A stretch of DNA of 64,000 nt from Candidatus Moraniibacteriota bacterium (GTDB taxonomy: Bacteria > Patescibacteriota > Minisyncoccia > Moranbacterales > DUUL01), in NCBI GenBank assembly GCA_041583775.1, contig JBFHFF010000001.1, positions 27,528 through 91,527 on the forward strand. The letters are read 5' to 3'. A model generated the notes under the pieces. It had not been told where the DNA came from, did no database searches, and was given only the letters and a program-made list of their open reading frames with translations. The translations under genes and the position numbers were made by a program. This document shows positions 13,235 through 56,394 of the stretch, one piece after another (the stretch's first letter is position 1; the number at the start of each line of letters is the position of its first letter).

Positions 13235-13570
13235 TCAACTATTTTGGTGTTTATAAATTTCCATCCAAGCTTCTTCTGGAATAAAAATCTCTTTATTTTT
13301 TGGACTTTCTCCAGGGAAAATCCAAGTTGAAATTATTTTTTTCTTCCCTTTTTCAAATTGATACATCACCCAAGTTTCTTTTGTGCTAGATTTCCCTACT
13401 TTACGACGCATAGATGCTACAGTATTTTCAGCGATTCCTTCCTCCTTTCTGTCTGGGAAACGAATAACTCTCTTTATCACATTTGCACCGATTGAGTACT
13501 GAATCATCTTTCTTTTAGAGTGACTTGTCCAATAATAATTTCTATCATTCTTTGGGAATTTAAAATCCAT
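13235..13570 (-). CDS. DUF4258-family protein (putative toxin)
   Basis: YWTSHSKRKMIQYSI fits the DUF4258 signature W-x-x-H-A-x-x-R-M-x-x-R-x-I. Confidence 0.5.
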   Translation of the reverse strand: MDFKFPKNDRNYYWTSHSKRKMIQYSIGANVIKRVIRFPDRKEEGIAENTVASMRRKVGKSSTKETWVMYQFEKGKKKIISTWIFPGESPKNKEIFIPEEAWMEIYKHQNS

Positions 13571-13591
13571 TTTACAAATTTTAATATAAAA

Positions 13592-14068: not shown

Positions 14069-15077
14069 TTTTTTTATTTTTAGCTAATTTATTTGAAATA
14101 TTTTTAATAAAAAATACTAAACATAGAATTTCAATCAAAACAACTCCCAATTTCCAATTTCTTGATTCCATCATAAAAGAAAAACAAAGTGTTAATGAAA
14201 TAAATATAAAATAATAAGAAACTATTTTGACATCCGACCATCCACAAGCTCTCAACTTGTAATGTAAATGTCTTTTGTCTTTTTTTGTTATTGGCAGATT
14301 ATTTTGCCACCTCTCTATTACAACCCAAATAAAATCAACAAGTGGAATAATTAATACTATCAAAATTGTTGCAATTTTTGTGCCAGCCATTATAGCAGTT
14401 GTGGCTAAAAAAAATCCAATTGCATAGCTACCACTAGTCCCTGCCTCAATTTTTCCTTTTGGAAAATTATTCCACCAAAAACCAAGAATTGCTCCAATAA
14501 AAATAAGTGCCAAAATTGCAATTGCCGGTTGGTTCACATCCTGCGTCAAACTAATCCAAAATAAGGCAATCCCGCCTAAAAGTCCAACTACACCAGAAAG
14601 GCCATTTATTCCATCAGCCCAATTTACTGAATTTATAATCATCAAAAACCATACCAGTACAAAAATAAAACCAAAGAACGAAAAACGAAAATTCCAAATT
14701 TCAAATAAAATTGTATCAATCCGAAAAACCTTCTCAAAAGGACCAACAAAATAATCCACCGAAAAAGAAAACATTACCACCAAAAAAAGAACTAGGATAA
14801 CTTGAAATAACAATTGGTATTTCCAAGACAAATTTAAAATATCATCAAGAATGCCAAAGATTAGGATTGCTACTAATCCAAAAATCAAACCCTTAATTGC
14901 TATAGTAGTCTCTATTTGAGAACTGGCTAAAATAATTACTAACAAGGGAACAGCAACTGCAATTCCCCCAAATCTTCTAACAAAACCCATCCTTGTTTTG
15001 CTTTGGAAAAAGCTAATAGAAAAGGATATTCCCGCGCTCATCAAAACTGCACCTAAAAAATATATTGCCCAACCCAT
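14052..15077 (-). CDS. Glycosyltransferase family 4 (MraY/WecA-like polyprenyl-phosphate N-acetylhexosamine-1-phosphate transferase)
   Basis: Polytopic; DDxxN-like ILDDILNL and DGINGLSG motifs. Confidence 0.75.
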   Translation of the reverse strand: MGWAIYFLGAVLMSAGISFSISFFQSKTRMGFVRRFGGIAVAVPLLVIILASSQIETTIAIKGLIFGLVAILIFGILDDILNLSWKYQLLFQVILVLFLVVMFSFSVDYFVGPFEKVFRIDTILFEIWNFRFSFFGFIFVLVWFLMIINSVNWADGINGLSGVVGLLGGIALFWISLTQDVNQPAIAILALIFIGAILGFWWNNFPKGKIEAGTSGSYAIGFFLATTAIMAGTKIATILIVLIIPLVDFIWVVIERWQNNLPITKKDKRHLHYKLRACGWSDVKIVSYYFIFISLTLCFSFMMESRNWKLGVVLIEILCLVFFIKNISNKLAKNKKNEIKN

Positions 15078-15095: not shown

Positions 15096-16835
15096 TTATT
15101 TACCCTCTTCTTTAACCTCTTTATCTTTCTTAATAATTTTTTCTGTAACCCAAAATTCACCCATATATTTTCCAAGCATAATCTTTGTTTGTGCGTGGAC
15201 TGCTGGTGCTGCACCTAAAAATGGCGCAATAACTGGTGCCAAAAACCACTGAAAAAACATATTTGCATAACGCTTTCTGGAATATCTTGCTGGTTTTGGT
15301 GGCATTAAAAGGAAGCTCAAAAACATAGAAACGACTAATCCTGTCATTGCCAATGTCATCAAATATCTAGTCACATATGGCAAGTTATGTGCCAGAGTTG
15401 TTTCGCTAAATCTTTCTCCTCCGAAAATTAAAGGCAACCAACCCAAAATAGCAAGAACAAAAGAAGCTGTTGCCCAACTATGATGCCCTTCCAACATCGT
15501 AAACATATGTTTAAATTTCTTACTAGTTTTAATTTTTTTATTTCTAATAAAAGCTCGTCCCAACAGGGGAAGGTTTTCAATTCCATATGCCCAACGATGT
15601 TTTTGTTTGTACTGATTTTTGATTGTGTGCCAATAATCATTTCCAAGCACAGCATCCAAAGAAACTGGCAAATAAATAGGCTTCACTTGATAGTCACCAT
15701 CAAAATAATCGTATGCCTTCCAATAAATAACGGAGTCTTCAGATATAACATTAACGGGCCAATAATCAACATCTACTATTGTTTTAAATGCTTCTGAATG
15801 CGAAGAAAAAGTTACCATATGATCTGGCCTCATTGATTCAACCATATGCCAAAATGATGATCCTGTAACAATAACTCTTACTGGGGCGATAGTATCCCAA
15901 AGATTATTGTGATACATCGGTAATGGTTGGTATGCAAAATTCAGCCTTCGTGGCTCAGTTACATATGCATAAGTTAAAGCCGCTAGATATTCTGGGTGAA
16001 TTTGTGTATCACAATCAAAATTAGATAAAACAACACTTTCCAATGGAATATTTTTCTTTTCTAAATATTTTTTCAATTCCTTTGCCGCATAAGTTGTATT
16101 CGCAGCTTTACACTTCATTTCATTACCTTTAACCTCGTGAACGGTAACAATAATATCCATAAAAGTGTCTTTGTACTTGTCTAATAATATTTTCTTTTTT
16201 TCCTCCCGCTTAGCCAAATCTTCTCGTTCCTCCATTGCAAGAAGAATAATAATCTTATCGGTTGGATAATTTGAATTTTTTACAGCTTCAACAGCAGGAA
16301 CAATAATTCCAGCCTCTTCATTGGCAGTTGGAAGCATAATAACATGATACACTTCCTCCCAAGGCAAAAAATGTTCCCTGTTTTTCAAATCAGCCTGTGC
16401 TCGTATAAGAAAATTACCTCTCTCAAGAATTTTCTGTTTCAGTTCTTTCCGCTCTTTTCGCTCCATTTTTCCCTCGCTGAGTTCTTTTTTTAATTTTTCA
16501 ATTTCAGCCTTTAACTCATCAACCAATGAATCTCCCTTGAAAATTGCCTCCAGTCTATGAAACCAATCGATTTTTTTCCAACGACTCAATTTCCTATATG
16601 CTATAATCGAATAAATTGAAATATAGATTGTTCTATAAATCCAATAGATATCAAAAAGAATAATAAAAATTGCTACCCAAACTGGAACAATCCAAGAAAA
16701 AATAAACATCCCTAGCAATGTAAACCAACAAAAAAATCCTGGCAAAATTTCAAAAAAGCGTTGCCATTTTCTTTCTTTTGGATTGGTGGTCTTTGGGTCT
16801 GGATATGCCCAGTTTTTTTTATAAACTTCACTCAT
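15096..16835 (-). CDS. Glycosyltransferase family 2, processive (cellulose/chitin synthase-like) with N-terminal TM and coiled-coil segment
   Basis: D,D,D35Q(R/Q)xRW-type motif KQKHRWAYG; TM helices at both ends. Confidence 0.75.
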   Translation of the reverse strand: MSEVYKKNWAYPDPKTTNPKERKWQRFFEILPGFFCWFTLLGMFIFSWIVPVWVAIFIILFDIYWIYRTIYISIYSIIAYRKLSRWKKIDWFHRLEAIFKGDSLVDELKAEIEKLKKELSEGKMERKERKELKQKILERGNFLIRAQADLKNREHFLPWEEVYHVIMLPTANEEAGIIVPAVEAVKNSNYPTDKIIILLAMEEREDLAKREEKKKILLDKYKDTFMDIIVTVHEVKGNEMKCKAANTTYAAKELKKYLEKKNIPLESVVLSNFDCDTQIHPEYLAALTYAYVTEPRRLNFAYQPLPMYHNNLWDTIAPVRVIVTGSSFWHMVESMRPDHMVTFSSHSEAFKTIVDVDYWPVNVISEDSVIYWKAYDYFDGDYQVKPIYLPVSLDAVLGNDYWHTIKNQYKQKHRWAYGIENLPLLGRAFIRNKKIKTSKKFKHMFTMLEGHHSWATASFVLAILGWLPLIFGGERFSETTLAHNLPYVTRYLMTLAMTGLVVSMFLSFLLMPPKPARYSRKRYANMFFQWFLAPVIAPFLGAAPAVHAQTKIMLGKYMGEFWVTEKIIKKDKEVKEEGK

Positions 16836-20259: not shown

Positions 20260-23672
<3,413 letters not shown>

Positions 23673-26019: not shown

Positions 26020-27813
26020 TCACTTTTTTCTGTTAAAATATTTTGTGTGTAATAATTCCTCTGATTTTTCTCCTCCTGGCTCTTTTAAAAATTCCTCATA
26101 TAATTTTTTCACTGCTGGATTTTTGTGCGATTTTCGAATTGGCAATTTAGAATCTTTTCGATAAATTACCTCTCTTCGCTCCCTTCTAATCTCTGCATTA
26201 GTCGGGATTGGCTGTCCTCCTCCTCCGAGACAACCACTAGGACATGCCATTATTTCAACAAAATGAAACTCACACTCACCTTTTCGCATCATTTCCAAAA
26301 TTTTCTTGGCGTTTCTAATTTCATGAGCAACTGCAACTTTTATTCTCAATTCTTCAACATTACATTTTCCTTTGGGAATTACAATTTCAGCAGTTTTAAT
26401 CCCCGCCTCCCCTCTTATAGCTTTAAAATCTAACGAAGGCAACTCCTCACGGGTTAATGTTTCATAAGCAGTTCGCAGTGCGGCCTCCATAACACCACCA
26501 GTTGAACCAAAAATTATACCAGCACCAGAATATGTGCCAAGAGCTTGATCGAAGTTTTGATCCTCTAGTTTCAAAAAATCAATTTTCTTTTTTTTCAAAA
26601 ATCTTGCCAACTCTCTTGTGGTTATAACCAAATCAACATCCCGCAAACCGTTTCTTCCCATTTCTTTGCGACCAGCCTCAAACTTCTTTGATGTACAAGG
26701 CATTATAGAAATACTAGCAATATTTTTTTCACTAATTTTCTGTTTTTGAGAATGATATGTTTTTATCATTGCTCCCAACATCTGTTGTGGAGATTTTGCA
26801 GTAGAAAGATGTTCTTTGTATTCTGGCCAATATTTTTCTAAATATAAAACCCAAGAAGGACAACAACTTGTAAACATAGGAAATTTAACATCCTTATCCC
26901 CTTTAAGAAATTTTGTGATTCTCTCAATAAGCTCATGAGCTTCTTCAATAATTGTTAAGTCCGCTGAAAATGTTGTATCGAAAACTAAATCAGCACCAAT
27001 TTTCCTTAAAGCTGTTGGAATTTTTTCCTCAACAAAATTTCCTGGCTCCAACCCAAATTCTTCACCAAGAGTAAAACGCACAGAAGGAGCTACTTGAAAA
27101 ATTTTAATTTTTGACTTATCTTCCATAAGCTCTTCTAGTTTCAAAACCTCATCCTTTTCTGTTATTGCCGCAGTTGGACAAACATTTGCACATTGTCCGC
27201 ACAAAATACAGTCCATGGGCACATTACATGCAGTTCCAACGCTTGTTTGAATTGAACGACCACTCATTGAATATTCTCCTATTGTTTGAATTTGTGTACA
27301 AACCCTAATACACCTTCCACATTCAATACAATATTGATTATCCCTTGCTATTGAAGGATTTCCATTATCCACTATTCTACCTTTTAAACTTTCCTTTAGG
27401 GCTCTTAATTTTTGTTCTTCATCAAACTTTTTGATTTCTGGAACAAAATCAAAAACATCAAGCTTATATTCTTTTGCTAAATTTTGTAATTCACAATTTC
27501 CATTTTTTAAACAATGCGCACATTTTCCCGCATGATCAGCCCAAAGCAATTCAAGATTTATTTTCCTTGCCTTTTCTATATCGTCATCCTCTGTAACTAT
27601 TTCTAGTCCATCAGCAACAGTCAGTTGACAAGAAGTTGTTAACTGACTATGGTCTTTAACCTTAACTAAACACAGACGACAAACTCCACCCGAGGATAAT
27701 AAATCATCATGATTACAAAGCGTTGGAATTCTAATGCCATTCCTTTGACAAACTGCTAAAACGGTTTCGCCTTCTTGGCAATCGTAAATTTTATCGTTTA
27801 TTTTAATTTGCAC
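26020..27813 (-). CDS. hydA: [FeFe]-hydrogenase catalytic subunit HydA (N-terminal 2Fe-2S and 4Fe-4S domains plus H-cluster domain)
   Basis: H-cluster motifs L1 TSCCPSW, L2 MPCTSKKFE, L3 EIMACPSGCLGGGGQP. Confidence 0.9.
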   Translation of the reverse strand: MQIKINDKIYDCQEGETVLAVCQRNGIRIPTLCNHDDLLSSGGVCRLCLVKVKDHSQLTTSCQLTVADGLEIVTEDDDIEKARKINLELLWADHAGKCAHCLKNGNCELQNLAKEYKLDVFDFVPEIKKFDEEQKLRALKESLKGRIVDNGNPSIARDNQYCIECGRCIRVCTQIQTIGEYSMSGRSIQTSVGTACNVPMDCILCGQCANVCPTAAITEKDEVLKLEELMEDKSKIKIFQVAPSVRFTLGEEFGLEPGNFVEEKIPTALRKIGADLVFDTTFSADLTIIEEAHELIERITKFLKGDKDVKFPMFTSCCPSWVLYLEKYWPEYKEHLSTAKSPQQMLGAMIKTYHSQKQKISEKNIASISIMPCTSKKFEAGRKEMGRNGLRDVDLVITTRELARFLKKKKIDFLKLEDQNFDQALGTYSGAGIIFGSTGGVMEAALRTAYETLTREELPSLDFKAIRGEAGIKTAEIVIPKGKCNVEELRIKVAVAHEIRNAKKILEMMRKGECEFHFVEIMACPSGCLGGGGQPIPTNAEIRRERREVIYRKDSKLPIRKSHKNPAVKKLYEEFLKEPGGEKSEELLHTKYFNRKK

Positions 27814-27836
27814 ATCTTCAATTTTATAAATTATTT

Positions 27837-29069
27837 CTATTTCAATTCATCACAAAACCCATAACGAAGAACATCTTTTAATGCGATGACGGAAAATTTG
27901 CCCAAAGCACATAATGTCGTGTTATCAAGAGTCCACACCAAATTTTTAAAATCCTCCCTATCATTTTCTGAAAAAGTTCCTTCATTCAATCGCTCTATAA
28001 TACTTTTCAATCTAAATGTTCCCTCTCTACAAGGAACGCATTGGCCACAAGATTCTCTGTGAAAAAAATTTATCCAACTAAGCATAAGTCTTTTGATGTC
28101 TTGGTTTTTACTTATAACTAAAATAGCACCAGAGCCCATTGGAACATAAGAACTTCGAGGGTATGCAGGGACTGCTCCAAAAGATCCAAAAGGAATCAGA
28201 ACCCCTGCAGAACCACCTACTTGAGCAAACCAAGGCTCGTCACCATCTACAATACCTCCAGCATATTTATATACTATATCGTTTATACTTGACCCCATAG
28301 GCGCCTCATATGCACCAGGATTTTTAACAATCCCATCTACACAAAATATTTTTGTTCCAACTTCTCCATTGCCACCAATTTGTGAATATCTAGTCCCACC
28401 ATACTCCATTATCCAGGGAATACTAGATAGAGTCTCTGTGTTATTAACAACTGTTGGTTTATTAAATAAGCCTTTTTCACTCGTATATGGTGGTCTTTTC
28501 CTTGGTTCCCCTCTTTTACCCTCAAGTGAATTAATAAGAGCAGTCTCTTCTCCGCAAATATAAGCCCCCGCACCAACAAATAATTCTAATTCCAAACTAA
28601 AATCACTTCCCATTATATTTTCTCCCAAAAAATTGTTTTCATATGCTTGAGAAATTGCTCTCTCCAATAAAAAATGAGCTAGATGAAAATTTCCATTTGC
28701 ATAAACATAAGCCTTGCTAGCACCAACTGCATACGCACCAATAATAATACCTTCGATAAGTTGGTGAGGGTCATTTTCTGCAATTAATCTATCTTTATAA
28801 GTTCCTGGCTCAGACTCATCTAAATTACAAATAAAGTATTTCTCTTTCTCATCAGAGGCAGTAACAATTTCCCATTTTTTTCCAGTAGGAAATCCTCCAC
28901 CTCCTCGCCCTTTCAATCCAGAATTTACAACTTCATTGACAACAGCCTGTGGCTTCATTTGTAAAACTTTTTGCAAAATTTGATAACCACCAATTTTACG
29001 ATAACTGGTTATTTCCTTTGGGTCAATCTTCCCCCAATTTCTAGTTAAAACTTTTTGATCCTCTTCCAT
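27837..29069 (-). CDS. hydB: NuoF-like NAD(P)H/flavin subunit of bifurcating hydrogenase (HydB/HndC)
   Basis: GRGGGGFPTG FMN/NADH motif and C-terminal ESCGQCVPCREG 4Fe-4S. Confidence 0.9.
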   Translation of the reverse strand: MEEDQKVLTRNWGKIDPKEITSYRKIGGYQILQKVLQMKPQAVVNEVVNSGLKGRGGGGFPTGKKWEIVTASDEKEKYFICNLDESEPGTYKDRLIAENDPHQLIEGIIIGAYAVGASKAYVYANGNFHLAHFLLERAISQAYENNFLGENIMGSDFSLELELFVGAGAYICGEETALINSLEGKRGEPRKRPPYTSEKGLFNKPTVVNNTETLSSIPWIMEYGGTRYSQIGGNGEVGTKIFCVDGIVKNPGAYEAPMGSSINDIVYKYAGGIVDGDEPWFAQVGGSAGVLIPFGSFGAVPAYPRSSYVPMGSGAILVISKNQDIKRLMLSWINFFHRESCGQCVPCREGTFRLKSIIERLNEGTFSENDREDFKNLVWTLDNTTLCALGKFSVIALKDVLRYGFCDELK

Positions 29070-29113
29070 TTGTTTTTATTTTTGCTTGAAATATAAACTA
29101 ACCTATTCCATTT

Positions 29114-29563
29114 CTATTCAAATTCCGTATAACCCCTCAAAATGTCATCTACCATCTCTGGCGTAACCTTCTCATACATTACATCATTTACAACCATGAT
29201 GGGGCCTTGTGAACAAAAACCGAAACAACTCACTCTTTCAATTTTAATTTTATGATTAAAGTTGTCGTCAACTTTCTGTCCAAAAAATCTCTCAATTTCT
29301 CGAATAATCTTATCTGAATTTTTTGTACAACAATTCGCTCCATCGCAAATTTTCACAACAATACTAAATTTTTCCGCAGTATTTATCTGATCATAAAAAC
29401 TTGCTGCACTGAAAACAGCTGCTGGTTTCATTTTAAAATATTTAGCAATTTGATCAATAGCCTGCGCATCAACTATGCCAAAATTTTTTTGAACATCCTT
29501 AATAACCCTTAAAAGATTCTCAGGTCTAACTTCATATTGCATTAAAATGTTTTGGATTGTCAT
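29114..29563 (-). CDS. hydC: NuoE-like thioredoxin-fold 2Fe-2S subunit (HydC/HndA)
   Basis: CDGANCC ... CFGFCSQGP cysteine pattern of NuoE. Confidence 0.85.
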   Translation of the reverse strand: MTIQNILMQYEVRPENLLRVIKDVQKNFGIVDAQAIDQIAKYFKMKPAAVFSAASFYDQINTAEKFSIVVKICDGANCCTKNSDKIIREIERFFGQKVDDNFNHKIKIERVSCFGFCSQGPIMVVNDVMYEKVTPEMVDDILRGYTEFE

Positions 29564-32010: not shown

Positions 32011-32065
32011 TTATTTATTACAAATTCATCAAACATCTTTCATATTATAACAAATCAAACTAATT

Positions 32066-32111
32066 TATAAAAAAATTAGCGGTAAGTTTGTGTTATACAC
32101 GAACTTACCGC
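32066..32111 (-). terminator. Intrinsic terminator ending the TrmB-containing operon
   Basis: gcggtaagtt ... aacttaccgc 10 bp stem, U-run on minus. Confidence 0.75.
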
Positions 32112-32298
32112 TTCGGATAGGTTTTAGGGAGCCGTGATTGGCTCATTTTTTCCTCCTCTGACATCTTTTCTGCTTGAAGCTCTTTCACAGGTCCATAGCT
32201 CCTCCTTTAATCTCTTTTAGAGTTTTACCTAGCCAAATTAAAATTCATCAAAAAAATACAAATATTAATTTAGATAGACAATAAAACTATTTTAAATC

Positions 32299-33057
32299 TT
32301 ATCTTTTATCCCAAATAATTCTAAAAATATTTTTAAACATTTCTGCCAATGTTTTATTTTCAATTACTACACCACCCAACTTTCCTAAATAATCTATCAT
32401 AAATATCCTATTTCCATATATATTCATGCCTCCTCTAAAGGGATATTTCTCAAAAGGAACGAATAAATGTTCTTGCATCCTTCTTTTTCCAGCAATCTCA
32501 TAGTCAATTTTCCTTCCCTCTCTAGATGTATAAATAACTTTAGCATTAATCTTCTTTGCCATCCTTCGCTCCCTAACACCCTTCCATTTACTTTGCAAAG
32601 CTGAGTTCCTGAATTCATCATACGGGAGAAATGTATATACTTCTTCACCTTCCTCTAGATTGTTTACATAGTTATCATAAACAGCCTTCAGTCCTTCCGT
32701 TCCTTCAAAATATCTAATCTTAGGTTTATCACTAAAATCATTATATAGCAAATTCAATTCAGGAACAATTTTCTTTAATTTCTCAATTTTCTTATGAATT
32801 TCTTCCTCTTTTTGAGAAAAATGTTCAATTAATTGATATGGCTTTTCTGCTACATAAAATGTTTTTTTTCCTTCATCATAAGTTGACATCAATCCCATTT
32901 CCATCAAACTTTCGATGATTACATAGGTTGTTGCTCTATTTACCTTTGATTTCTGAGAAATTTTTTGTACAGATGATGGACCAGTTTGTATAGCAGCCAA
33001 ATAAACGCTTGCTTCTTTTTCAGAAAGACCTAATTTTTCTAATTCCTTATTCAACAT
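32299..33057 (-). CDS. TrmB-family transcriptional regulator
   Basis: N-terminal wHTH LSEKEASVYLAAIQTGPSSVQKISQKSKVNRATTYVIIESLMEMGL typical of TrmB. Confidence 0.75.
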   Translation of the reverse strand: MLNKELEKLGLSEKEASVYLAAIQTGPSSVQKISQKSKVNRATTYVIIESLMEMGLMSTYDEGKKTFYVAEKPYQLIEHFSQKEEEIHKKIEKLKKIVPELNLLYNDFSDKPKIRYFEGTEGLKAVYDNYVNNLEEGEEVYTFLPYDEFRNSALQSKWKGVRERRMAKKINAKVIYTSREGRKIDYEIAGKRRMQEHLFVPFEKYPFRGGMNIYGNRIFMIDYLGKLGGVVIENKTLAEMFKNIFRIIWDKR

Positions 33058-33168
33058 AAAACCAAATTATCTCTTTAGAATCTTATCTTTCAATAAAAAC
33101 AGCCGTTTCATCTTGTATAGCATACCTTTTACATTTTGTCCAGCCCTAATAAGTATTTAAGGGTGTTT

Positions 33169-35031
33169 CTATTTTTTATCTTTCAATGCGCTTGTTATCA
33201 TATCTCTTAAACCTCTTGTATCAATTTGTTTCTTTTCTGGTTCTTCTCCACCCACATTATTTAATGTTTTTTCTTCTTTTACTAATTGTTCAAAGGCTTT
33301 AGCAAAAGGTTTTTCGGTTCTTGAAGATTGATTCTTTTTTTCAACTTCTTCCCCTCTTTGAACCTCTGTCTTTTCCAAAACTGGTTTTACTGGCAAAGAA
33401 ACATCTTTACCATCTTTTGATTGCAACTGTAATTTAGATTGTTCTCTGCGATAATTTTTCAAACAATCCTTACAAAATATAGGCCTCTTGCCATCAGGCT
33501 TAAAAGGAATCTTAGTATCAACACCACATCCCCAACATTTTGTTGAAAACATCTCCCTATCATCATTCGCTGTCTCCGAGACATTCTCATCACTTTTTAT
33601 CTCAGACCTAATTTCTTTTTTATGAATATTTGCAGCGCTGTTCATTCCTTGACTTGTATTTGATGAATTTTTTTGTTCTCTTTGCGAATTCATTTCTTTT
33701 CCTTGGGCCAAGGCAGAAATTCTACTCTTAACTTCTGGCTTCACCATACCACTCCATTTCATAATCTTATCTTCAACAACATCTCTTTCCGAAGAATACC
33801 TCTCCCTGGAAGCTTGAATGATTTTATCTAAATTTTTTGAAGTCACTTCCATTTCAATCGGCTCTAAAGAGGCAGCAGAGAAAGGATCTGTTGCAACTCC
33901 ATTAATCATCAACTTTAAATACATGGTGTATTTATTCAAATTAACTAAATCATTAGCCATAAAAATTGGCTCAAATTCCTTCTCCAAAGTCTCAGAATCC
34001 ATTGCACCAATTCTAAATGAAGCAATTGTTCCAACATTTCCGAATACAGCATCTCTAACAGTTTCCTCTAATTGTGCAATATATTGATGTGCTAAAATAA
34101 GATTTAAACGATATTTTCGAGCTTCCGATAGAATGCCCGCAAAAGATTCTGTCGCAAAGTTTTGAAACTCATCCACATAGAGATAGAAATCCTTTCTTTC
34201 ACTCTCTGGAATGTCCACTCTAGACATAGCCGCAAGTTGAATTTTTGTGATCATCATAGCCCCTAAAAGTGCACTGTTATCCTCTCCAATTCTACCCTTT
34301 GAAAGATTCATAATTAAAATTTTCTCACTATCCATCGCCTCTCGAACATCAAAAGCTGATTTTGTTTGACCAACTATATTTCGGATAAGTGTTGTTGAAA
34401 GAAATTGCCCTACCTTATTTTGGATCGGAGAAATTGCTTCAGTTAACATTCTGTCATTATATTTTGAAAATTCATCCTCCCAAAAAGCCCTAACCAAAGG
34501 ATCAGTTACATGCTCCATAACTCTTGCTCGATACTCTTTGTCAATTAAAATCCTTGTTACACCCAAAAGTGTTGAGTCTGGATCCTCTAAAAGCGCCAAA
34601 ATTGCATTTCTTAAGATATATTCCAATCTTGGACCCCAAGAATCAGCCCAAATTTTCTTAAAAACACCAACAAGCCCAGATGCAATTAAGTGTCTAAATT
34701 CCTGATCTTGACATTCAAGTACATTCAGAGCAACTGGATGTTTTAAATCCGAAGGATTAAAATAAATCACATCATTGATTCGATGAGCTGGAACTGCCTT
34801 CAAACACTCTTCAGCAAACTCACCATGAGGATCAATAACAGCCATACCCTTACCATTTCTAATATCCTGAATGGCCATGTTTTGTATCATGGTTGTTTTT
34901 CCCATTCCTGTTTTACCAATAACATACATATGCCTTCGCCTGTCATCAGTCTTGATTCCAAAAGCACTTTGTTTATTTCTGTAATTAGTCTTTGCGAAAA
35001 AGTTTATTTCTTGGTTTTCAAATTTATTCAT
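33169..35031 (-). CDS. VirD4/TraG/TrwB-like (type IV coupling protein family) P-loop ATPase without N-terminal TM, with C-terminal CxxC..CxxC zinc ribbon
   Basis: Walker A GKTGMGKTT, Walker B LYVDEFQNF, LILAHQYIAQLE motif resembling the T4CP Q-rich region, C-terminal CWGCG...CKDC. Confidence 0.7.
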   Translation of the reverse strand: MNKFENQEINFFAKTNYRNKQSAFGIKTDDRRRHMYVIGKTGMGKTTMIQNMAIQDIRNGKGMAVIDPHGEFAEECLKAVPAHRINDVIYFNPSDLKHPVALNVLECQDQEFRHLIASGLVGVFKKIWADSWGPRLEYILRNAILALLEDPDSTLLGVTRILIDKEYRARVMEHVTDPLVRAFWEDEFSKYNDRMLTEAISPIQNKVGQFLSTTLIRNIVGQTKSAFDVREAMDSEKILIMNLSKGRIGEDNSALLGAMMITKIQLAAMSRVDIPESERKDFYLYVDEFQNFATESFAGILSEARKYRLNLILAHQYIAQLEETVRDAVFGNVGTIASFRIGAMDSETLEKEFEPIFMANDLVNLNKYTMYLKLMINGVATDPFSAASLEPIEMEVTSKNLDKIIQASRERYSSERDVVEDKIMKWSGMVKPEVKSRISALAQGKEMNSQREQKNSSNTSQGMNSAANIHKKEIRSEIKSDENVSETANDDREMFSTKCWGCGVDTKIPFKPDGKRPIFCKDCLKNYRREQSKLQLQSKDGKDVSLPVKPVLEKTEVQRGEEVEKKNQSSRTEKPFAKAFEQLVKEEKTLNNVGGEEPEKKQIDTRGLRDMITSALKDKK

Positions 35032-35081
35032 CTTGTTTTTTGCTTGATTTTCTTGACTTTTCTAAAAAAATACATTGTGCA

Positions 35082-35110
35082 ATTATAATACATTCATCTT
35101 GTTATTGCAA
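35082..35110 (-). promoter_or_regulatory. Possible internal promoter in front of the ATPase gene
   Basis: On minus, TTGCAA-17nt-TATAAT. Confidence 0.4.
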
Positions 35111-36502
35111 TGATTCTTCAAATTCTATCGGGAGATTAGCTGGGGCACTACCCTTCTTGGCATGAATCCTTGAAACATTAGGAGATTGAACGGAAATGTC
35201 AGGGAAATGAAATACTGTTGCCAGCTCTTCAATATTAAAAACAAAGCCACCATGCGAAAAACTTCTATCTCTAAAATTCTGAACAATCCTTCTTTGTCTA
35301 AAAGTTAACCTAGATCCTATGAAATGATACAGTGCAAAAGTCTTAGATCTTGGATCTGGCATAAATGAATTAAGATTTGTGTCTCCAAATTGTTTTATAG
35401 CGCCCATAACACCAGCAACTCCAAGTGCCTTATTAAAATTCTCCCTTCTTCCAATATACACAAAGCGCAATGTTGTTTTAAAGGCAATTTTTGCGATGTT
35501 CTCATAAACAGCTTTCACTTTTTCCTGCTCATCTGGAGACAACCTATTGATATTAAAATCCTCTTTTACAATTTCTTCTGCTGAACTCCCCTCTGGTGAC
35601 ACTAATTCGGCCTCAGAAACAAACATTCCGCGAAGAACATTTCCGGGTAAAACAAAAAGTTCTCCAAGATACCCAAAAATACTCTTTTTGGGCTTCGCAC
35701 CATCGCCTTTTCCAATCATCTTGTTTATATATTCAACACTTTGAGGATGCCACTGACTCTCTGAAATTGGAGTAAATACTAATTGCAACCAAACATTTTG
35801 ATTTTTCCCAAGAGCACTCATAACTTCAGTAAGAGATGATAATGGATCAATCATAAGTCCCGATATCTCTTCTTTAAACTGTTTGTGTGTTCTAATGGGC
35901 AGTTGATCCTCCTTGACCAACTGTAATGTTGTGCCCCAAACATCCCATTCTGCATTAGGAAGATTTTTTGGGGTGTGTGTCCAAACATAATCATCCACTT
36001 CAAAGACCTCTGTATCAGGATATTGAGCATATATCTGTGCCTCAACATTATTCCTAGCCATAGCAGGACATCTTATGTAAAAATGAACACTTCCAGAGTG
36101 AGAGGCAATTTCGAAAGAAAATTTATCTTGATTAGTTCTCCAACCACAATATTTCTCAAATTTATTAATTCCTGAATATGTATGTAGCCCATGAAATACC
36201 TGTTCCATTATTTTTGGACCTTTTTCAGTATCAGCGGGTGGGATAATTTCCAAAACAATATTTTTAGTCCCCATGGCCCACATTAAATCAATATACTCCT
36301 CCCAAACTAAAAGAAAGAGTTTCCAAATTGGTACTGGCAAGACAACCCACCAAATATTTTTAAACAGATCTTTCAGGATTATAAAAAAAACAATATCACC
36401 ATTAGCAATCATCATCACAATCACCAAAAACAAAAGCAGAATAACTATGCCGCCTAGAATTATTGTTGATCTATTTTTCGAATTTATATTTTTAAATAGC
36501 AT
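35102..36502 (-). CDS. Membrane-anchored hypothetical protein (two N-terminal TM helices plus about 400 aa soluble domain)
   Basis: Hydrophobic N-terminus; no recognisable motif; upstream of and co-oriented with the T4CP-like ATPase. Confidence 0.6.
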   Translation of the reverse strand: MLFKNINSKNRSTIILGGIVILLLFLVIVMMIANGDIVFFIILKDLFKNIWWVVLPVPIWKLFLLVWEEYIDLMWAMGTKNIVLEIIPPADTEKGPKIMEQVFHGLHTYSGINKFEKYCGWRTNQDKFSFEIASHSGSVHFYIRCPAMARNNVEAQIYAQYPDTEVFEVDDYVWTHTPKNLPNAEWDVWGTTLQLVKEDQLPIRTHKQFKEEISGLMIDPLSSLTEVMSALGKNQNVWLQLVFTPISESQWHPQSVEYINKMIGKGDGAKPKKSIFGYLGELFVLPGNVLRGMFVSEAELVSPEGSSAEEIVKEDFNINRLSPDEQEKVKAVYENIAKIAFKTTLRFVYIGRRENFNKALGVAGVMGAIKQFGDTNLNSFMPDPRSKTFALYHFIGSRLTFRQRRIVQNFRDRSFSHGGFVFNIEELATVFHFPDISVQSPNVSRIHAKKGSAPANLPIEFEESLQ

Positions 36503-36552
36503 TTGTTTTTATTTCCAATGCATAAACTTCAAGAGACATTGCCTTTCTAACC

Positions 36553-37632
36553 TTAAACGATTTGTTTCTTTAAAGTAAATTTTCCATCATTAGTTTTATG
36601 AAAAATATTTCTATCAGCCAAAGTAACTTTAACAGTAGTTTCTTTGACTTGTTTTTTTGAAAGCACATACTCTATTATCAATTCTCTGTCTAATGGTTTT
36701 TCTTGTTTATTCAGAAAAGAAAAGATTACTTCTTTAACAGTTCCTTCTGGAAATCCCCAGTTATTCAAACCATAGATACCTCTCCCTACCAAAACAAATC
36801 TATCATCCTTAATCAATTCATTATGAACTGTTTGTGGAAGAGCCTCTTTTTTATTTACCCAATAAGTATTTATGTGCTTTGTTATTTTTCTAAAATGCAA
36901 TGGTGTGTCGTGTTTTTTAAGAACCAAGAAAGCCTTCTCTCTTGCGCCTCGCTCAGAAATTATTTTCCAATTTTTCATCCCCCACTCTTCAAGAATATTT
37001 TTATTTACAAACCTGCTCATCTCTAAAATCATCCTCAATCGCTTAGAACCAGTTTCTCCTGCAAAAAAATCTGCATATTCTGAATTTCTAAATTCCAAAA
37101 GTATATCCTGAAAAAGACTTGGGACCTTGTTTGCCTTAATGAACCTAACAACTGCATTGTGAGCCTTTAAAACTTCCCTATCTATCTTGTCACCCCTCAG
37201 AAACCAGAAACCTCTCATGCTCAGCTTTCCCTTCTTAAAACTCAATTTTTTTGAACTATTTAAAATAAACATAACCTGATTTCGCTCTTTTTTAGTTATA
37301 TTCTCTTTTAAAGTTTCTTTTAATTTTCTTTTTTCACAAAAACCACCATTCTCTTCGATTGTTTTAATAGCAATACCTACCAAAACATTAAAATCATCAT
37401 CTTTTTTAACAGCTTGGAGCTTTTTAAAACTATCGCCTTCAATCTGCCTCACTCTTTCTCTGGTAATTTTAAATTCATCACCAATTTTACCTAAAACTTT
37501 TGGATCTTTTCCATCCAATCCAAATCTTTTAATAATAATCTCACGAGGTCTTTCTTTTAAATTGTCTAAAAGTTTTTTCGTAATCTTATTCAGTGCGAGA
37601 CTTGACATCACCTCTTTGCCCATACAACCCAA
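36553..37632 (-). CDS. Sigma-70 region 4 domain protein with about 280 aa C-terminal extension
   Basis: ERPREIIIKRFGLDGKDPKVLGKIGDEFKITRERVRQIE is a close match to the RpoD region 4.2 HTH. Confidence 0.65.
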   Translation of the reverse strand: MGCMGKEVMSSLALNKITKKLLDNLKERPREIIIKRFGLDGKDPKVLGKIGDEFKITRERVRQIEGDSFKKLQAVKKDDDFNVLVGIAIKTIEENGGFCEKRKLKETLKENITKKERNQVMFILNSSKKLSFKKGKLSMRGFWFLRGDKIDREVLKAHNAVVRFIKANKVPSLFQDILLEFRNSEYADFFAGETGSKRLRMILEMSRFVNKNILEEWGMKNWKIISERGAREKAFLVLKKHDTPLHFRKITKHINTYWVNKKEALPQTVHNELIKDDRFVLVGRGIYGLNNWGFPEGTVKEVIFSFLNKQEKPLDRELIIEYVLSKKQVKETTVKVTLADRNIFHKTNDGKFTLKKQIV

Positions 37633-37701
37633 AATTAGTAATTATCTTTTAAATAAAGCATTTTTTTGCACAAAATAATATGCCATTCAATACTTTGGCG
37701 T

Positions 37702-37730
37702 ATAATAACACAATAACCAAAAATTGTCAA
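37702..37730 (-). promoter_or_regulatory. Consensus sigma70 promoter with extended -10, driving the sigma-r4/membrane/ATPase operon
   Basis: On minus, TTGACA-17nt-TGtTATTAT. Confidence 0.55.
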
Positions 37731-50948: not shown

Positions 50949-52430
50949 TTATTTATTTCTAACTTCTTTCAATTTAAACACAACTCCAATAAAAAACAAA
51001 TAATACCCAATTACCCACCAAACGCCAACATCACCAATTTCAATATTCGCAAAAGGAAACTTTGCTAATTCTCCAATTGCAAAAATTTCAAAATGCAGAA
51101 AAAACCAAACTATTAAAGAAAATATTTTAGCAGCAAAAAGAGAAAAGAAACTGAGGATAATCGACATAAACCCTAACAACATAATGATTGGGATAAGTGG
51201 TAAAATGATAATGTTGGCAAGTAAAGAGATTAAGGAAAAAGATTCAAAAACATAAACCAAAAGACCTAAAACTCCTAGTTGTGCAGAAATTGTAACTAAA
51301 ATTATCGATTTAAGCTCTAGGAAATCATCCTTAATTTCCATCAATAATGACAATGGTGCATAAATTAAAATAATTCCAAGTGTCGCCAGAAATGACAATT
51401 GAAATCCAACATCATATAATAATATAAAAGGGGAGAAAAAAACCATCCCGGTCGCTGCGAAAACTGCAACACGCACAGAATTAGCTAAACGGCCTTTTTG
51501 CATCGCCCAAAGCATAAGAATTCCCATTATCGCAGCCCTTGTTGCGGATGACGGAGCACCTATCATAATAACAAAGAGGATAATTCCAAAAACAGCTAAC
51601 AAAAAAGCTTGTTTTCTCCAAAATCCCAAGCCAATCCCAAGCCACATTAGAATATTGGCAATGATTGTAATATTATAACCAGAAACAGCCACTGTGTGAG
51701 TTGTGCCTGTAATACGAAAATTTTCTGCCACACTAGTAGGCAAACGGTCATCACCTCCTAGCAATAGTCCTGCCAAATAAGCTCCCTCTGGTTCTGGCAA
51801 TAAGATACCGATTTTCTCTTCAAATTTTTCCCTTAACTGGAAAATTCTTCCCATAAAAAAACTTCTCTGAGTTTTTGTAAGCTTTTTTATTTTTGCAGAA
51901 GAGCAAATATAAAAAACTCTTTCACTAGCCAAAAATCTTTTATAATTAAATTTTTCATACTTATTTTCAGGAATTTTCATTTTACACGAAACTTGCAAGT
52001 AATCCCCAAAATTTATTGTTGGCTTTGGTTCTGCAAAAATTAAAACATTTTCTACAAATCTATTTTCCAACCCTTCAATCTCAGCACTAACAACAATTTT
52101 TTGATATTCTTCATTAATTTCAGGAGCTCTTTTCACTACAACTTCCCCATTAAAATCAAATTCTTCTTTCAGTGAGTCTAGTCTTAAAATTTCACCGTTT
52201 ATTTGCCAAACTCCTATCAAAAACCCCAAAGACAAAAAAAGTAGACGCCCGATACGCCTACTTTTCCATACAACCATACTCACAAAAAACAAAAATATGC
52301 CCACTCCTATTAACCAAAACTGCACCTCAATAAATGCTCTTATCGCAACACCAACCAAAAAACCAAATGCTATTAAAATTGAAATTTGTGAAATAGAAAA
52401 AAAATTTTCAAAAAAATTTTTTATACTCAT
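50949..52430 (-). CDS. comEC: ComEC/Rec2 DNA-uptake channel protein (DUF4131 plus competence domain)
   Basis: Polytopic, typical ComEC competence-domain architecture; MBL domain encoded separately downstream. Confidence 0.8.
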   Translation of the reverse strand: MSIKNFFENFFSISQISILIAFGFLVGVAIRAFIEVQFWLIGVGIFLFFVSMVVWKSRRIGRLLFLSLGFLIGVWQINGEILRLDSLKEEFDFNGEVVVKRAPEINEEYQKIVVSAEIEGLENRFVENVLIFAEPKPTINFGDYLQVSCKMKIPENKYEKFNYKRFLASERVFYICSSAKIKKLTKTQRSFFMGRIFQLREKFEEKIGILLPEPEGAYLAGLLLGGDDRLPTSVAENFRITGTTHTVAVSGYNITIIANILMWLGIGLGFWRKQAFLLAVFGIILFVIMIGAPSSATRAAIMGILMLWAMQKGRLANSVRVAVFAATGMVFFSPFILLYDVGFQLSFLATLGIILIYAPLSLLMEIKDDFLELKSIILVTISAQLGVLGLLVYVFESFSLISLLANIIILPLIPIIMLLGFMSIILSFFSLFAAKIFSLIVWFFLHFEIFAIGELAKFPFANIEIGDVGVWWVIGYYLFFIGVVFKLKEVRNK

Positions 52431-54090: not shown

Positions 54091-56394
54091 TTATGCTGAC
54101 CATTTTTCACGCCTAGACTGATCATTTTCTGAATCTTCATATTTAGTTGAACCTTCTCCTACGGTCGAGCCATCTATTAAAACATCTCTTGCTCTTGAAC
54201 CATCTGGTGGTCCAATAACTCCATTTTCTTCCAAAAGATCAATAATCCTTCCCGCTCTTGAAAATCCAATTCTTAATTTTCTTTGTAACATTGAAGCAGA
54301 AGCTTTTCCAGCATCAACAACAATTTCTTTCGCTTTTTCATACAATTCATCGTCTGGTTCACCTCCAGTACCCTCGCTTGCAAAGACTCCAGTCGCACTG
54401 GACAATTGTTCTTCCAAAGATTGGGAGAGATCCTCCCCATCATCATATTTAATTTTATCAGCCTGCTTTTTAACAGCACTAACAACTCGCTTCACTTCAT
54501 TTTCTGAAACAAAAACACCCTGAATTCTCATTGGCTGAATTGAGTCAGCGCTTTTATATAGCATATCACCATTGCCAATTAGTTTTTCTGCACCACCTTG
54601 ATCCAAAATTGTTCTTGAATCAATTTGTGTTGCCACTTTAAAAGCAATTCTTGTTGTAATGTTAGCCTTAATTAGGCCAGTAATAACTTCTACTGATGGT
54701 CTTTGTGTTGAAACAACGAGATGGATTCCAATGGCACGAGCTTTTTGCGCTAAACGCACAATAAGTCCCTCTACCTCTTTTCCATGAGTCGCCATTAGAT
54801 CAGCTAACTCATCAATCACAATCAAAATATATGGCAGCTTTTCTAAATATTCCTCAGTAACTTCACCTGTTTCTTTGTCTATTATTTGCTTCTTCTCTCC
54901 TTCTTCCACCTTTTGATTAAAAGAAAGAATGTCTCTTGAACCAACTTCCTGCAACAACCCAAATCTTCTTTCCATTTCCCCAATTGCCCATTTTAAAGCA
55001 TTTACTACTTTTTGTGAGTCCACAATAACTGGTGTTAAAAGATGTGGAATTCCCCCATACAAAGACAACTCTACTCTTTTAGGATCAACTAAAATCATTC
55101 TCAATTCTTCAGGGGAATTTTCAAATAACAAAGTCGTTAAAAGCACATTAACACAAACACTCTTTCCTGTTCCTGTAGAACCAGCAATCATTAGATGTGG
55201 CATTTTTTCAATATTTGCCAAAACTGGTTTTCCACTAACATTCTCCCCCCAAATAATACTTAGGTTTGACTTTCTGTTTTCAAATTCAGAACTCTCAAGC
55301 ATCGTTCTCATTTTTACAAAAGATTTCTTTTTATTTGGCACTTCAATTCCCACCAATGACCTTCCTGGAATTGGAGCTTCAATCCTAATTGAACTTGCCG
55401 CCAAAGCTAAAGAGAGATTATCCTGTAAAGACAAAATTCTACTCAACTTTACTCCAACGGCTGGACTAAAGGTGTACTGAGTTACTGTTGGTCCAACCGA
55501 ATATTCTCCAGGGATTACTTCAATTCCAAAATTATGCAAAGTCTGTTTAATTATGTCGATTATTTCTTTATGATTAGAACTTGCTGCTCTTTTTTCATTT
55601 TTTTCAACCAAATTAAACGATGGTGGTCGCCAATTTATTCCACTATACACATTTTGTTTTATATGACCTCCTCCGACTTTTTTTTGAGGAGACTCTATTA
55701 CATCATCGGAAATATCATTTTTTGGACCCTCAACAAACTCAAGTGATTTAATATTATTTTTCAACTCTTCTGCTCCAATTTCTTTCTCGACACCTTTTTC
55801 AACAACTTCAGAATTATCATCCTCACCCTCTAAGGCATCTGTGTTTTTATTTTTTCCAATCCTTGGAATAGTAACATTCCCCTTGATTCTATCTATTAAA
55901 GAAAAAATTGAAGCATTAAAAAGCAAAATCAATCCTATAAGAGAAAAGCCTGATAAAATTATTACCGCTGCTATCTTACCTAGAAATTTTGCCAAAGGAT
56001 ACGCAAATGCAAATCCTAAATATCCTCCTGCTTGGCCGACCTTAGCAAGTTCAAGCATTTCTTTAGGATCGTGAAAAATATGTACCAACCCCAAAAGCAT
56101 ACTGTATAACAAAACTGCTCCAAATGCAGCCAGTGTGTAACGAATTGGTTTCATTTTCCTGAAATAAAGAACTCCTAGAATAAACATTATTAGAGGTAAA
56201 AAATATCTTCCTGCTCCAAATAAAAAAGCAAGCCCTTTGTCAATATACTCGCCAGCTACGCCAGCTTTTCCAAACAAACTTAAGAGAAAAATCAAACTAA
56301 TCATTATCAAAAAAACAGCAATTATATGTTTTTTTGCACCTCCATCCAAAACCGTTTCTTTTTTAGTTTCTTCTTTTTTCGGTTTTTTTCCCAT
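54091..56394 (-). CDS. ftsK: DNA translocase FtsK
   Basis: N-terminal TM domain, Walker A AGSTGTGKS, C-terminal gamma wHTH. Confidence 0.9.
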   Translation of the reverse strand: MGKKPKKEETKKETVLDGGAKKHIIAVFLIMISLIFLLSLFGKAGVAGEYIDKGLAFLFGAGRYFLPLIMFILGVLYFRKMKPIRYTLAAFGAVLLYSMLLGLVHIFHDPKEMLELAKVGQAGGYLGFAFAYPLAKFLGKIAAVIILSGFSLIGLILLFNASIFSLIDRIKGNVTIPRIGKNKNTDALEGEDDNSEVVEKGVEKEIGAEELKNNIKSLEFVEGPKNDISDDVIESPQKKVGGGHIKQNVYSGINWRPPSFNLVEKNEKRAASSNHKEIIDIIKQTLHNFGIEVIPGEYSVGPTVTQYTFSPAVGVKLSRILSLQDNLSLALAASSIRIEAPIPGRSLVGIEVPNKKKSFVKMRTMLESSEFENRKSNLSIIWGENVSGKPVLANIEKMPHLMIAGSTGTGKSVCVNVLLTTLLFENSPEELRMILVDPKRVELSLYGGIPHLLTPVIVDSQKVVNALKWAIGEMERRFGLLQEVGSRDILSFNQKVEEGEKKQIIDKETGEVTEEYLEKLPYILIVIDELADLMATHGKEVEGLIVRLAQKARAIGIHLVVSTQRPSVEVITGLIKANITTRIAFKVATQIDSRTILDQGGAEKLIGNGDMLYKSADSIQPMRIQGVFVSENEVKRVVSAVKKQADKIKYDDGEDLSQSLEEQLSSATGVFASEGTGGEPDDELYEKAKEIVVDAGKASASMLQRKLRIGFSRAGRIIDLLEENGVIGPPDGSRARDVLIDGSTVGEGSTKYEDSENDQSRREKWSA

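What the first reader, a model, noticed from the sequence alone, without database searches (positions are those of the whole stretch)
32066..37730. Operon: sigma70-region-4 protein, large membrane protein, TM-less VirD4/TraG-like ATPase with zinc ribbon, TrmB regulator
A single minus-strand transcription unit is delimited by a consensus extended -10 sigma70 promoter (37702-37730) and a strong terminator (32066-32111). It encodes (i) a protein whose N-terminus is an almost textbook sigma70 region 4.2 HTH (RERVRQIE) fused to about 280 aa of unknown function; (ii) a 466 aa protein with two N-terminal TM helices and a large uncharacterised soluble domain; (iii) a 620 aa P-loop ATPase with Walker A GKTGMGKTT, Walker B LYVDEFQNF and LILAHQYIAQLE, i.e. 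type IV coupling protein (VirD4/TraG/TrwB)-like, which unusually lacks the N-terminal membrane anchor and ends in a CxxC...CxxC zinc ribbon; (iv) a TrmB-family regulator; and (v) a 13-codon ORF with a perfect GAGGAGG SD. There is no relaxase, VirB4, integrase or other conjugation or mobile-element gene in the window, so this does not look like a classical conjugative element. The membrane partner and the ATPase could together form a split coupling-protein-like DNA or protein translocation device with its own sigma-like and TrmB regulators. This may be an undescribed system of a small-genome bacterium.
Basis: partly seen in the sequence, partly recalled or inferred. Interest (0 to 1): 0.7.

Follow-up and report, generated by a model that had tools for sequence, protein, structure and literature searches.

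The report
Split VirB4/VirD4-like membrane motor operon
A three-gene operon found across the ultra-small Patescibacteria encodes a type-IV-secretion-style ATPase motor split into a membrane half and a soluble half, next to a DNA-binding partner; it sits among housekeeping genes, is very strongly conserved, and its job is unknown.

Summary
The conserved unit, however, is three genes, not five. They are a sigma-region-4 protein with four winged helices, a membrane protein (Pfam DUF8128), and a transmembrane-less TrwB/VirD4-type ATPase with a zinc ribbon.

This order recurs in about 74-75 of 82 loci from different Patescibacteria species, beside housekeeping genes (secDF, mnmA, alaS) and never beside mobile-element genes. 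TrmB occurs only in the closest relatives, and the 13-codon ORF is not conserved.

The ATPase core is about 59% identical across genomes where MnmA is 37%, so it looks like a core function. A canonical FtsK lies in the same window, so this is not its replacement.

I read it as a chromosomally fixed, membrane-tethered translocation motor, probably for DNA. Substrate and direction are inferred, not shown. It accounts for at least part of the "orphan T4CPs" catalogued in Patescibacteria in 2025.

The parts
37702..37730 (-). Sigma-70-type promoter TTGACA-17-TATTAT with extended -10 TG
   Evidence: Scan. Nearly invariant (one substitution) in L089 and L090, while upstream DNA is unalignable.
37624..37701 (-). 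5' untranslated leader of about 78 nt, conserved in sequence
   Evidence: About 80% identical in three genomes. No covariation supports an RNA structure.
36553..37623 (-). Gene 1: sigma-70 region 4 HTH followed by four winged-helix domains, the third being the HARE-HTH (356 aa from the ATG at 37623)
35102..36502 (-). Gene 2: DUF8128 membrane protein, with one or two N-terminal TM helices and a cytoplasmic VirB4-N-terminal-domain-like region
33169..35031 (-). Gene 3: soluble TrwB/VirD4-type P-loop ATPase (Walker A residues 39-47, Walker B 284-292) with a low-complexity tail
   Evidence: Pfam and NCBIfam. hhalign against TrwB 95.5% (E 1.5e-8), against VirB4 1.5%, against the window's FtsK 4.4%. 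No TM segment. Median 59% identity across species.
33463..33537 (-). CxxC-x17-CxxC treble-clef zinc ribbon in the ATPase tail (residues 499-523)
   Evidence: zf_Tbcl_2 2.6e-13 and TIGR04272 1e-14. Present in 44 of 72 full-length orthologues.
32299..33057 (-). TrmB-family winged-helix regulator: a lineage-specific addition, not part of the core
   Evidence: Pfam TrmB 9e-14. Found only in L001, L007, L089 and L090 among the loci examined.
32185..32207 (-). Conserved AAGGAGG Shine-Dalgarno plus a 3-4 codon mini-ORF (MDL*)
   Evidence: Kept as MDL*, MDGD* and MDGL* in three genomes. Function unknown.
32105..32146 (-).
   Evidence: Region deleted in L090 and changed in L089.
32068..32112 (-). Intrinsic terminator ending the unit
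   Evidence: -20.7 kcal/mol, z -6.8. The stem is kept with changes on both arms in relatives.

Best explanation
The core is a three-gene operon conserved across Patescibacteria.

The parts. DUF8128 sits in the membrane through one or two N-terminal helices. It presents a cytoplasmic domain with the fold of the VirB4 N-terminal domain. The next gene encodes a soluble ATPase of the TrwB/VirD4 (type IV coupling protein) type. Together the two proteins reproduce the VirB4 architecture (N-terminal docking domain plus RecA-like motor), cut at the domain boundary.

How it works. By analogy with VirB4 and TrwB, the ATPase would assemble as a ring held against the membrane by DUF8128. It would use ATP to move a polymer, most likely DNA or a nucleoprotein. 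The first gene encodes a sigma-A region 4 domain plus four winged helices. It is the likely nucleic-acid or RNA-polymerase adaptor that brings the substrate, or else the operon's regulator. The zinc ribbon on the ATPase's flexible tail would be a second nucleic-acid or partner contact.

Status. The module is chromosomal, single-copy and under housekeeping-level selection, so it is a domesticated core function rather than a conjugative element.

Shown: gene content, conservation, synteny, folds, fusion homologues.
Inferred: complex formation, ring assembly, substrate, direction of transport.
For: - Gene order sigma4-HARE, DUF8128, ATPase on one strand in 74-75 of 82 loci from different species, with median gaps of 44 and 17 nt.
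- ATPase profile against TrwB: 95.5%, E 1.5e-8, spanning Walker A to Walker B.
- Rosetta-stone fusions. phrog_5156 is matched by DUF8128 at profile positions 26-274 (2e-14) and by the ATPase at 400-814 (6e-65). Single genes carry both halves in Bacillus phages CP-51 gp91 and G gp156, and in a Halorubrum megaplasmid; a Pontibacillus megaplasmid carries a decayed copy. In the Pontibacillus ORF the ATPase N-terminus follows DUF8128 within 8 residues.
- ATPase core 59% identical where MnmA is 37% in the same 22 genomes.
- Neighbours are SecD/SecF (40 loci), MnmA (24) and AlaRS (22).
- No relative found in 2.9 million viral contigs. Base composition is uniform.
- VirD4-type homologues occur in 2,918 of 3,035 Patescibacteria genomes, and only 148 of 5,713 lie near virB4 (PMC12102498).
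Against: - There is no sequence-level signal between DUF8128 and TrwK, TrsD or TrsE. The VirB4 link rests on a predicted model (pLDDT 75) with high rmsd (about 10 A) and low TM-scores.
- No multimer prediction or experiment shows that the proteins bind each other.
- The sigma4-HARE gene is absent from at least five loci that keep the other two genes. It may be only a syntenic RNA-polymerase factor.
- The zinc ribbon is missing in 28 of 72 orthologues.
- A t4cp homologue was dispensable for epibiotic growth of Southlakia (PMC12102498). I could not verify that it belongs to this family.
- Nothing identifies the substrate or a channel.
Confidence: 0.6

Rival explanations
1. It is simply the canonical coupling protein of the Patescibacteria type IV secretion system encoded elsewhere in the genome. 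It would deliver DNA or protein substrates to the VirB4/VirB6/pilin machine, with DUF8128 replacing the usual N-terminal membrane domain.
For: - TrwB_AAD_bind and TraG-D_C score above Pfam cut-offs.
- T4SS genes are widespread in the phylum (PMC12102498).
- In one relative (L003) two T4SS_pilin-domain genes directly follow the ATPase.
Against: - Only 148 of 5,713 homologues lie near virB4, and relaxases are rare.
- The pilin link is seen in 1 of 82 loci.
- The Southlakia T4SS is essential while its t4cp is not.
- The ATPase has no membrane domain.
- The N-terminal partner has the VirB4 fold, not a T4CP fold.
Confidence: 0.2
2. It is an anti-phage defence system built on a HerA/FtsK-type DNA pump with a HARE-HTH/sigma-like sensor.
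For: PADLOC hits to mad8 (3e-16), HerA and MzaA (4e-8). HARE-HTH and sigma-like domains occur in defence systems.
Against: - Present in a fixed housekeeping context in more than 70 species.
- Extremely conserved in sequence.
- No nuclease, methylase or other effector is linked to it.
- Defence systems are typically patchy and sit in variable islands.
Confidence: 0.04
3. It is a remnant of an integrated phage or plasmid (a partition or DNA-transfer module).
For: Fused homologues lie in Bacillus phages next to an actin-like ALP and a Replic_Relax protein, and on megaplasmids.
Against: - No integrase, relaxase, or capsid or tail gene appears among the neighbours examined in the window.
- GC content is uniform.
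- Synteny with secDF, mnmA and alaS holds across classes.
- No viral-contig relatives.
Confidence: 0.04
4. The three genes are neighbours only by inherited synteny. The sigma4-HARE protein would be a general RNA-polymerase accessory factor (delta-like), unrelated in function to the ATPase pair.
For: - JGI names some orthologues RNAP delta subunit.
- Five loci lack this gene but keep the other two.
Against: - Its adjacency (74 of 82 loci; most misses are at contig ends, five are true absences) far exceeds that of the other syntenic neighbours (29-49%).
- The intergenic gap is short.
- Phage homologues also carry an adjacent DNA-binding gene.
Confidence: 0.25
5. It is a split substitute for the FtsK chromosome-segregation translocase.
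For: It has a membrane part, an FtsK-superfamily motor and a winged-helix DNA reader, which resembles FtsK's N, alpha-beta and gamma domains.
Against: A complete canonical FtsK (4TM, alpha, motor, gamma) is encoded at 54091-56394 in the same window. The ATPase profile matches it at only 4.4%.
Confidence: 0.02

Closest known systems
Type IV coupling proteins (TrwB of R388, VirD4, TraD)
   Same: The nucleotide-binding domain is of the same family. Pfam TrwB_AAD_bind and TraG-D_C score above their cut-offs. hhalign gives 95.5% against TrwB from Walker A through Walker B.
   Different: It has no N-terminal transmembrane domain. It is not linked to virB4 or a relaxase. It is chromosomal, in conserved housekeeping synteny. 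It is paired with a separate protein of VirB4-N-terminal fold and carries a C-terminal zinc ribbon.
VirB4 (TrwK of R388), including VirB3-VirB4 fusions
   Different: It is split into two genes. No sequence similarity is detectable. The motor half is VirD4-like rather than VirB4-like.
phrog_5156 proteins (Bacillus phage CP-51 gp91, phage G gp156) and haloarchaeal or Bacillaceae megaplasmid homologues
   Same: They are true sequence homologues of both halves, in the same order.
   Different: They are fused into one polypeptide, lack the N-terminal membrane helices, and sit on mobile elements. Their function is also unknown.
EccE of mycobacterial type VII secretion
   Different: The structural match is much weaker, there is no sequence similarity, and the machine is different.
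RNA polymerase sigma-A region 4 and delta subunit (RpoE)
   Same: The gene 1 N-terminus is 35% identical in structure alignment to SigA region 4 and keeps the TRERVRQIE recognition helix. Its HARE-HTH domain resembles the delta N-terminal domain.
   Different: It lacks sigma regions 1-3, so it cannot act as a sigma factor. It carries four winged helices and is linked to a translocase operon.

Membership tests
Type IV coupling protein (VirD4/TrwB) | Nucleotide-binding domain of the TrwB/VirD4 family with Walker A and B | tested here: met
   TrwB_AAD_bind 65.1 bits (cut-off 20.5), TraG-D_C 24.3 (cut-off 22). hhalign 95.5% against TrwB. Motifs are visible in the translation.
Type IV coupling protein (VirD4/TrwB) | N-terminal transmembrane domain | tested here: not met
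   No 19-residue window reaches mean hydropathy above 1.6. Only 3 of 72 orthologues have any such window.
Type IV coupling protein (VirD4/TrwB) | All-alpha domain inserted between Walker A and B | tested here: inconclusive
   About 235 residues separate the motifs. The hhalign alignment runs through TrwB 118-393, but with low local confidence in that region. The ATPase was not modelled.
Type IV coupling protein (VirD4/TrwB) | Genetic association with a T4SS (virB4) and/or a relaxase | tested here: not met
   None found among the window genes examined or in 82 related loci, apart from pilin-like genes in L003. The literature reports 148 of 5,713 near virB4.
Type IV coupling protein (VirD4/TrwB) | Recruits substrates to a secretion channel | not testable with these tools
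   Requires genetics or biochemistry.
VirB4 | N-terminal domain of VirB4 fold | tested here: met
   [not shown]
VirB4 | C-terminal ATPase of the VirB4 sequence family | tested here: not met
   hhalign 1.5% against TrwK. The NCBIfam VirB4 hit covers only the P-loop.
VirB4 | Both domains in one polypeptide | tested here: not met
   Two genes in all Patescibacteria loci. No fusion appears among the 150 best family representatives. Fusions occur only in phage and plasmid homologues.
Pfam DUF8128 (PF26449) | Match to the family model | tested here: met
   The identical protein P0001 and nearly all listed homologues (all but two) carry PF26449 in the precomputed annotation. My local Pfam copy lacks the model.
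Sigma-70 family sigma factor | Region 2 (-10 recognition and core binding) in addition to region 4 | tested here: not met
   Only region 4 is matched. The model shows winged helices after residue 70.
FtsK/SpoIIIE | FtsK_SpoIIIE motor with alpha and gamma domains | tested here: not met
   hhalign 4.4%. The true FtsK lies at 54091-56394.
TrmB family regulator (gene 4) | N-terminal TrmB winged helix | tested here: met
   PF01978 51.5 bits (cut-off 25.6). All NCBIfam equivalogs score far below their cut-offs.

The most novel reading that the evidence does not exclude
This would be a third, previously unrecognised lineage of VirB4/VirD4-type motors. It combines a VirB4-type docking domain with a VirD4-type engine. 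Patescibacteria fixed it as a core, phylum-wide machine, and it survives in fused form on Bacillus phages and archaeal megaplasmids. With its sigma-4/winged-helix adaptor it would select promoter-like DNA or transcribing RNA polymerase and move nucleic acid across or along the membrane. That would be an essential part of how these nucleotide-auxotrophic epibionts handle or exchange DNA with their hosts, independent of the known T4SS and ComEC routes.
Probability: 0.25. Interest if true: 0.85.

Novelty: new variant of a known kind. Interest (0 to 1): 0.66.

Why it matters
Patescibacteria make up a large share of bacterial diversity, yet few of their conserved genes have known roles.

A 2025 survey found VirD4-like "coupling proteins" in 96% of their genomes. 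Almost none lay near a secretion system, and their role was left open.

This analysis gives at least part of that class a defined context:
- an obligate membrane partner with the VirB4 N-terminal fold;
- a sigma-4/winged-helix partner;
- housekeeping-level conservation.

It also links VirB4 and VirD4 architectures in one system, which bears on how the two signature type IV secretion ATPases diverged. The hypothesis can be tested directly in the genetically tractable Southlakia and Nanosynbacter systems.

Tried and rejected
- **FtsK replacement.** Rejected, because a full FtsK is in the window.
- **Sequence-level link of DUF8128 to VirB4 or TrsD.** hhalign against R388 TrwK and pSK41 TrsD and TrsE gave nothing. 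A profile search of PDB sequences gave nothing either.
- **General link to T4SS pilins.** jackhmmer with the L003 pilin-like proteins found no others in 82 loci.
- **Phage or mobile origin of the window copy.** No relatives in IMG/VR by pattern scan. No mobile-element genes among the neighbours.
- **RNA element in the 5' leader or in the TrmB-MnmA spacer.** No Rfam match near gathering score. No covariation in the leader.
- **The 13-codon ORF as a gene.** Not conserved.
- **Fusions inside the family.** None among the top 150 representatives. Fusions were found only through PHROGs and tblastn.


Full report
**1. What is in the window**

The window is low-GC (about 33%) with uniform composition. 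Its genes match Patescibacteria, with the closest named relatives labelled Moranbacteria.

Four ORFs lie head to tail on the minus strand:
- 36553-37632
- 35102-36502
- 33169-35031
- 32299-33057

- Gene 1 has Sigma70_r4 (9e-11) and HARE-HTH (2e-10).
- Gene 3 has TrwB_AAD_bind (7e-18, 65 bits against a cut-off of 20.5), DUF87, TraG-D_C and the zinc finger zf_Tbcl_2 / TIGR04272 CxxC-x17-CxxC.
- Gene 4 has TrmB.
- Gene 2 has no hit in my Pfam copy. The identical database protein and nearly all listed homologues (all but two) carry PF26449, DUF8128.

The ATPase has no hydrophobic segment, while DUF8128 has a hydrophobic N-terminus.

The promoter is TTGACA-17-(TG)TATTAT at 37730-37702. Such matches occur at chance frequency in this AT-rich DNA. 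This one, however, is nearly invariant (one substitution in one of the two) in two relatives of about 80% protein identity, while the DNA upstream cannot even be aligned. The same alignment places the start codon at the ATG at 37623.

The terminator (stem 32078-32112, then a U run) folds at -20.7 kcal/mol with z -6.8. Relatives keep it with changes on both arms.

The 13-codon ORF is deleted in one relative and altered in the other. A 3-4 codon mini-ORF behind AAGGAGG is conserved instead.

**2. The conserved unit is three genes**

A scan of one genome per species found at least 585 genomes with a DUF8128 relative. The 80 best were kept. Where the records carry informative names they belong to Patescibacteria lineages: Moran-, Kerfeld-, Buchanan-, Uhr-, Magasanik-, Yanofsky-, Terry- and Portnoy-bacteria, and Paceibacterota. 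A minority of records carry other automatically assigned names, which I take to be misassignments.

I called ORFs in these loci and searched them with the window proteins.
- The order sigma4-HARE, DUF8128, ATPase on one strand holds in 74 and 75 of 82 loci respectively.
- Most misses are at contig ends.
- Profile searches confirm true absence of the sigma4-HARE gene in five loci and of the ATPase in two.
- Median intergenic gaps are 44 and 17 nt.

TrmB is found only in the window's closest relatives.

Clustering all neighbours shows which other genes recur:
- SecD and SecF directly upstream in 40 loci
- SecA further upstream in 9
- MnmA downstream in 24
- AlaRS downstream in 22

No integrase, relaxase or VirB4 recurs. 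A pattern scan of 2.9 million viral contigs found no relative.

In the 22 genomes that have all four genes, the ATPase core is 59% identical to the window's. MnmA is 37%, DUF8128 36% and sigma4-HARE 33%. This is the signature of a core, strongly constrained function.

**3. What DUF8128 is**

An AlphaFold2 model built from 30 homologues (pLDDT 75, pTM 0.67) was compared with solved structures.
- Foldseek independently ranks 13 TrwK chains first (E 5e-5 to 2e-3).

The similarity is structural only. Profile-to-sequence comparisons with TrwK and with pSK41 TrsD and TrsE are negative.

**4. What the ATPase is**

A profile of 20 orthologues was compared with several ATPases.

| Compared with | hhalign probability |
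|---|---|
| TrwB (E 1.5e-8, residues 27-323 against 118-393) | 95.5% |
| pSK41 TrsK | 14.5% |
| The window's own FtsK | 4.4% |
| TrwK/VirB4 | 1.5% |

The closest solved structures by sequence are TrwB and DotL. The motor is therefore VirD4-like, but it lacks the membrane domain that conjugative coupling proteins normally need (PMC7431656).

**5. The two genes are halves of one protein**

PHROGs family phrog_5156 has 824 profile positions and no known function. DUF8128 matches positions 26-274 (2e-14) and the ATPase matches positions 400-814 (6e-65).

tblastn and profile searches found single genes that carry both halves, in the same order:
- Bacillus phages CP-51 (gp91, 911 aa), JL, Shanette and S4-1
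- Phage G (gp156, 825 aa)
- A 2,407-aa protein on a Halorubrum megaplasmid
- A decayed copy on a Pontibacillus megaplasmid

In the Pontibacillus ORF, the ATPase's N-terminus follows DUF8128 within eight residues. The Patescibacteria split therefore falls exactly at the domain boundary. The fused forms lack the N-terminal membrane helices.

In CP-51 the gene overlaps a downstream Replic_Relax winged-helix gene. It also lies near an actin-like ALP and a weak T4SS_pilin hit. In phage G it follows a VirB4-type ATPase.

**6. The sigma-like protein**

It lacks sigma regions 1-3, so it cannot be a sigma factor. It could bind -35-like DNA, RNA polymerase, or both. Whether it is an adaptor, a regulator or merely a syntenic neighbour is not resolved.

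**7. Mechanism**

Shown:
- A conserved operon.
- A membrane protein with the VirB4 docking fold.
- A soluble VirD4-type motor.
- Fusion homologues.
- Housekeeping context and conservation.

Inferred: DUF8128 tethers a ring of the ATPase to the membrane, and the ring moves DNA or nucleoprotein. The sigma4/winged-helix protein and the zinc ribbon contribute nucleic-acid or partner recognition.

Direction, substrate and channel are unknown. ComEC (50949-52430) and FtsK (54091-56394) are both in the window. The module therefore replaces neither.

**8. Relation to the literature**

Quinonero-Coronel et al. 2025 (PMC12102498) counted 5,713 VirD4-type homologues in 2,918 of 3,035 Patescibacteria genomes. 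Only 148 lay near virB4. They suggested the genes might have been exapted. They describe TrsD as a VirB4-N-terminal-like protein next to virB4. They do not mention sigma or zinc, and a DUF8128 partner of the T4CP did not come up in the passages read.

Wang et al. 2023 state that the Southlakia T4SS lacks a recognisable coupling protein. "DUF8128" occurs in no paper of the library.

**9. Verdict**

The system is a new variant of a known kind: a split, chromosomally fixed VirB4/VirD4-hybrid motor with a distinctive partner, widespread in a major bacterial radiation. Its function remains to be shown.

Noticed in passing
window 54091-56394 (-): Complete canonical FtsK (FtsK_4TM, alpha, FtsK_SpoIIIE motor, gamma). 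It shows that the T4CP-like module is additional to the normal chromosome translocase.
   Followed up: yes
window 50949-52430 (-): ComEC (Competence plus DUF4131 domains), the DNA-uptake channel, about 16 kb from the operon.
   Followed up: partly
window 32185-32298 (-): Between TrmB and the terminator lie an AT-rich hairpin after the TrmB stop and a conserved AAGGAGG plus 3-4 codon mini-ORF (MDL*, MDGD*, MDGL*). The hairpin arms change together in relatives. No Rfam family matches. It could be a leader or small regulatory element.
   Followed up: partly
window 32044-32071 (-): Directly after the terminator is a conserved extended -10 promoter (TG-TATAAT) for mnmA. The terminator and the next promoter are back to back.
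   Followed up: partly
window 26020-29563 (-): A NuoE-like, NuoF-like and [FeFe]-hydrogenase-like gene cluster (2Fe-2S_thioredx, Complex1_51K, Fe_hyd_lg_C), according to the Pfam annotation of the identical contig L001.
   Followed up: no
window 15096-16835 (-) and 22479-23672 (+): Two long ORFs (579 and 397 aa) with no Pfam family at E 1e-5.
   Followed up: no
L048 5563-6999, L079 8253-9701, L065 42-1163: Some Patescibacteria carry a second, shorter paralogue of the T4CP-like ATPase (about 480 aa) next to or near the operon. This fits the figure of about two T4CP homologues per genome reported in PMC12102498.
   Followed up: no
L003 11327-14095: In a Moranbacteria genome (GCA_034522495.1), two 440-458 aa proteins with an N-terminal T4SS_pilin domain directly follow the ATPase. 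This was seen in only this one locus.
   Followed up: yes
L091 (Bacillus phage CP-51) 2551-8526: A plasmid-like module: a weak T4SS_pilin hit (gp97), an actin-like ALP (gp96), four small ORFs, the fused DUF8128-ATPase (gp91) and an overlapping Replic_Relax gene (gp90). Its function in the phage is unknown.
   Followed up: partly
L093 (Halorubrum salinarum pHAR01) 6941-14164: A 2,407-aa archaeal protein with a DUF8128-like N-terminus, the T4CP-like ATPase at about residues 735-1130, and a very long C-terminal extension.
   Followed up: partly
[not shown]
   Followed up: no
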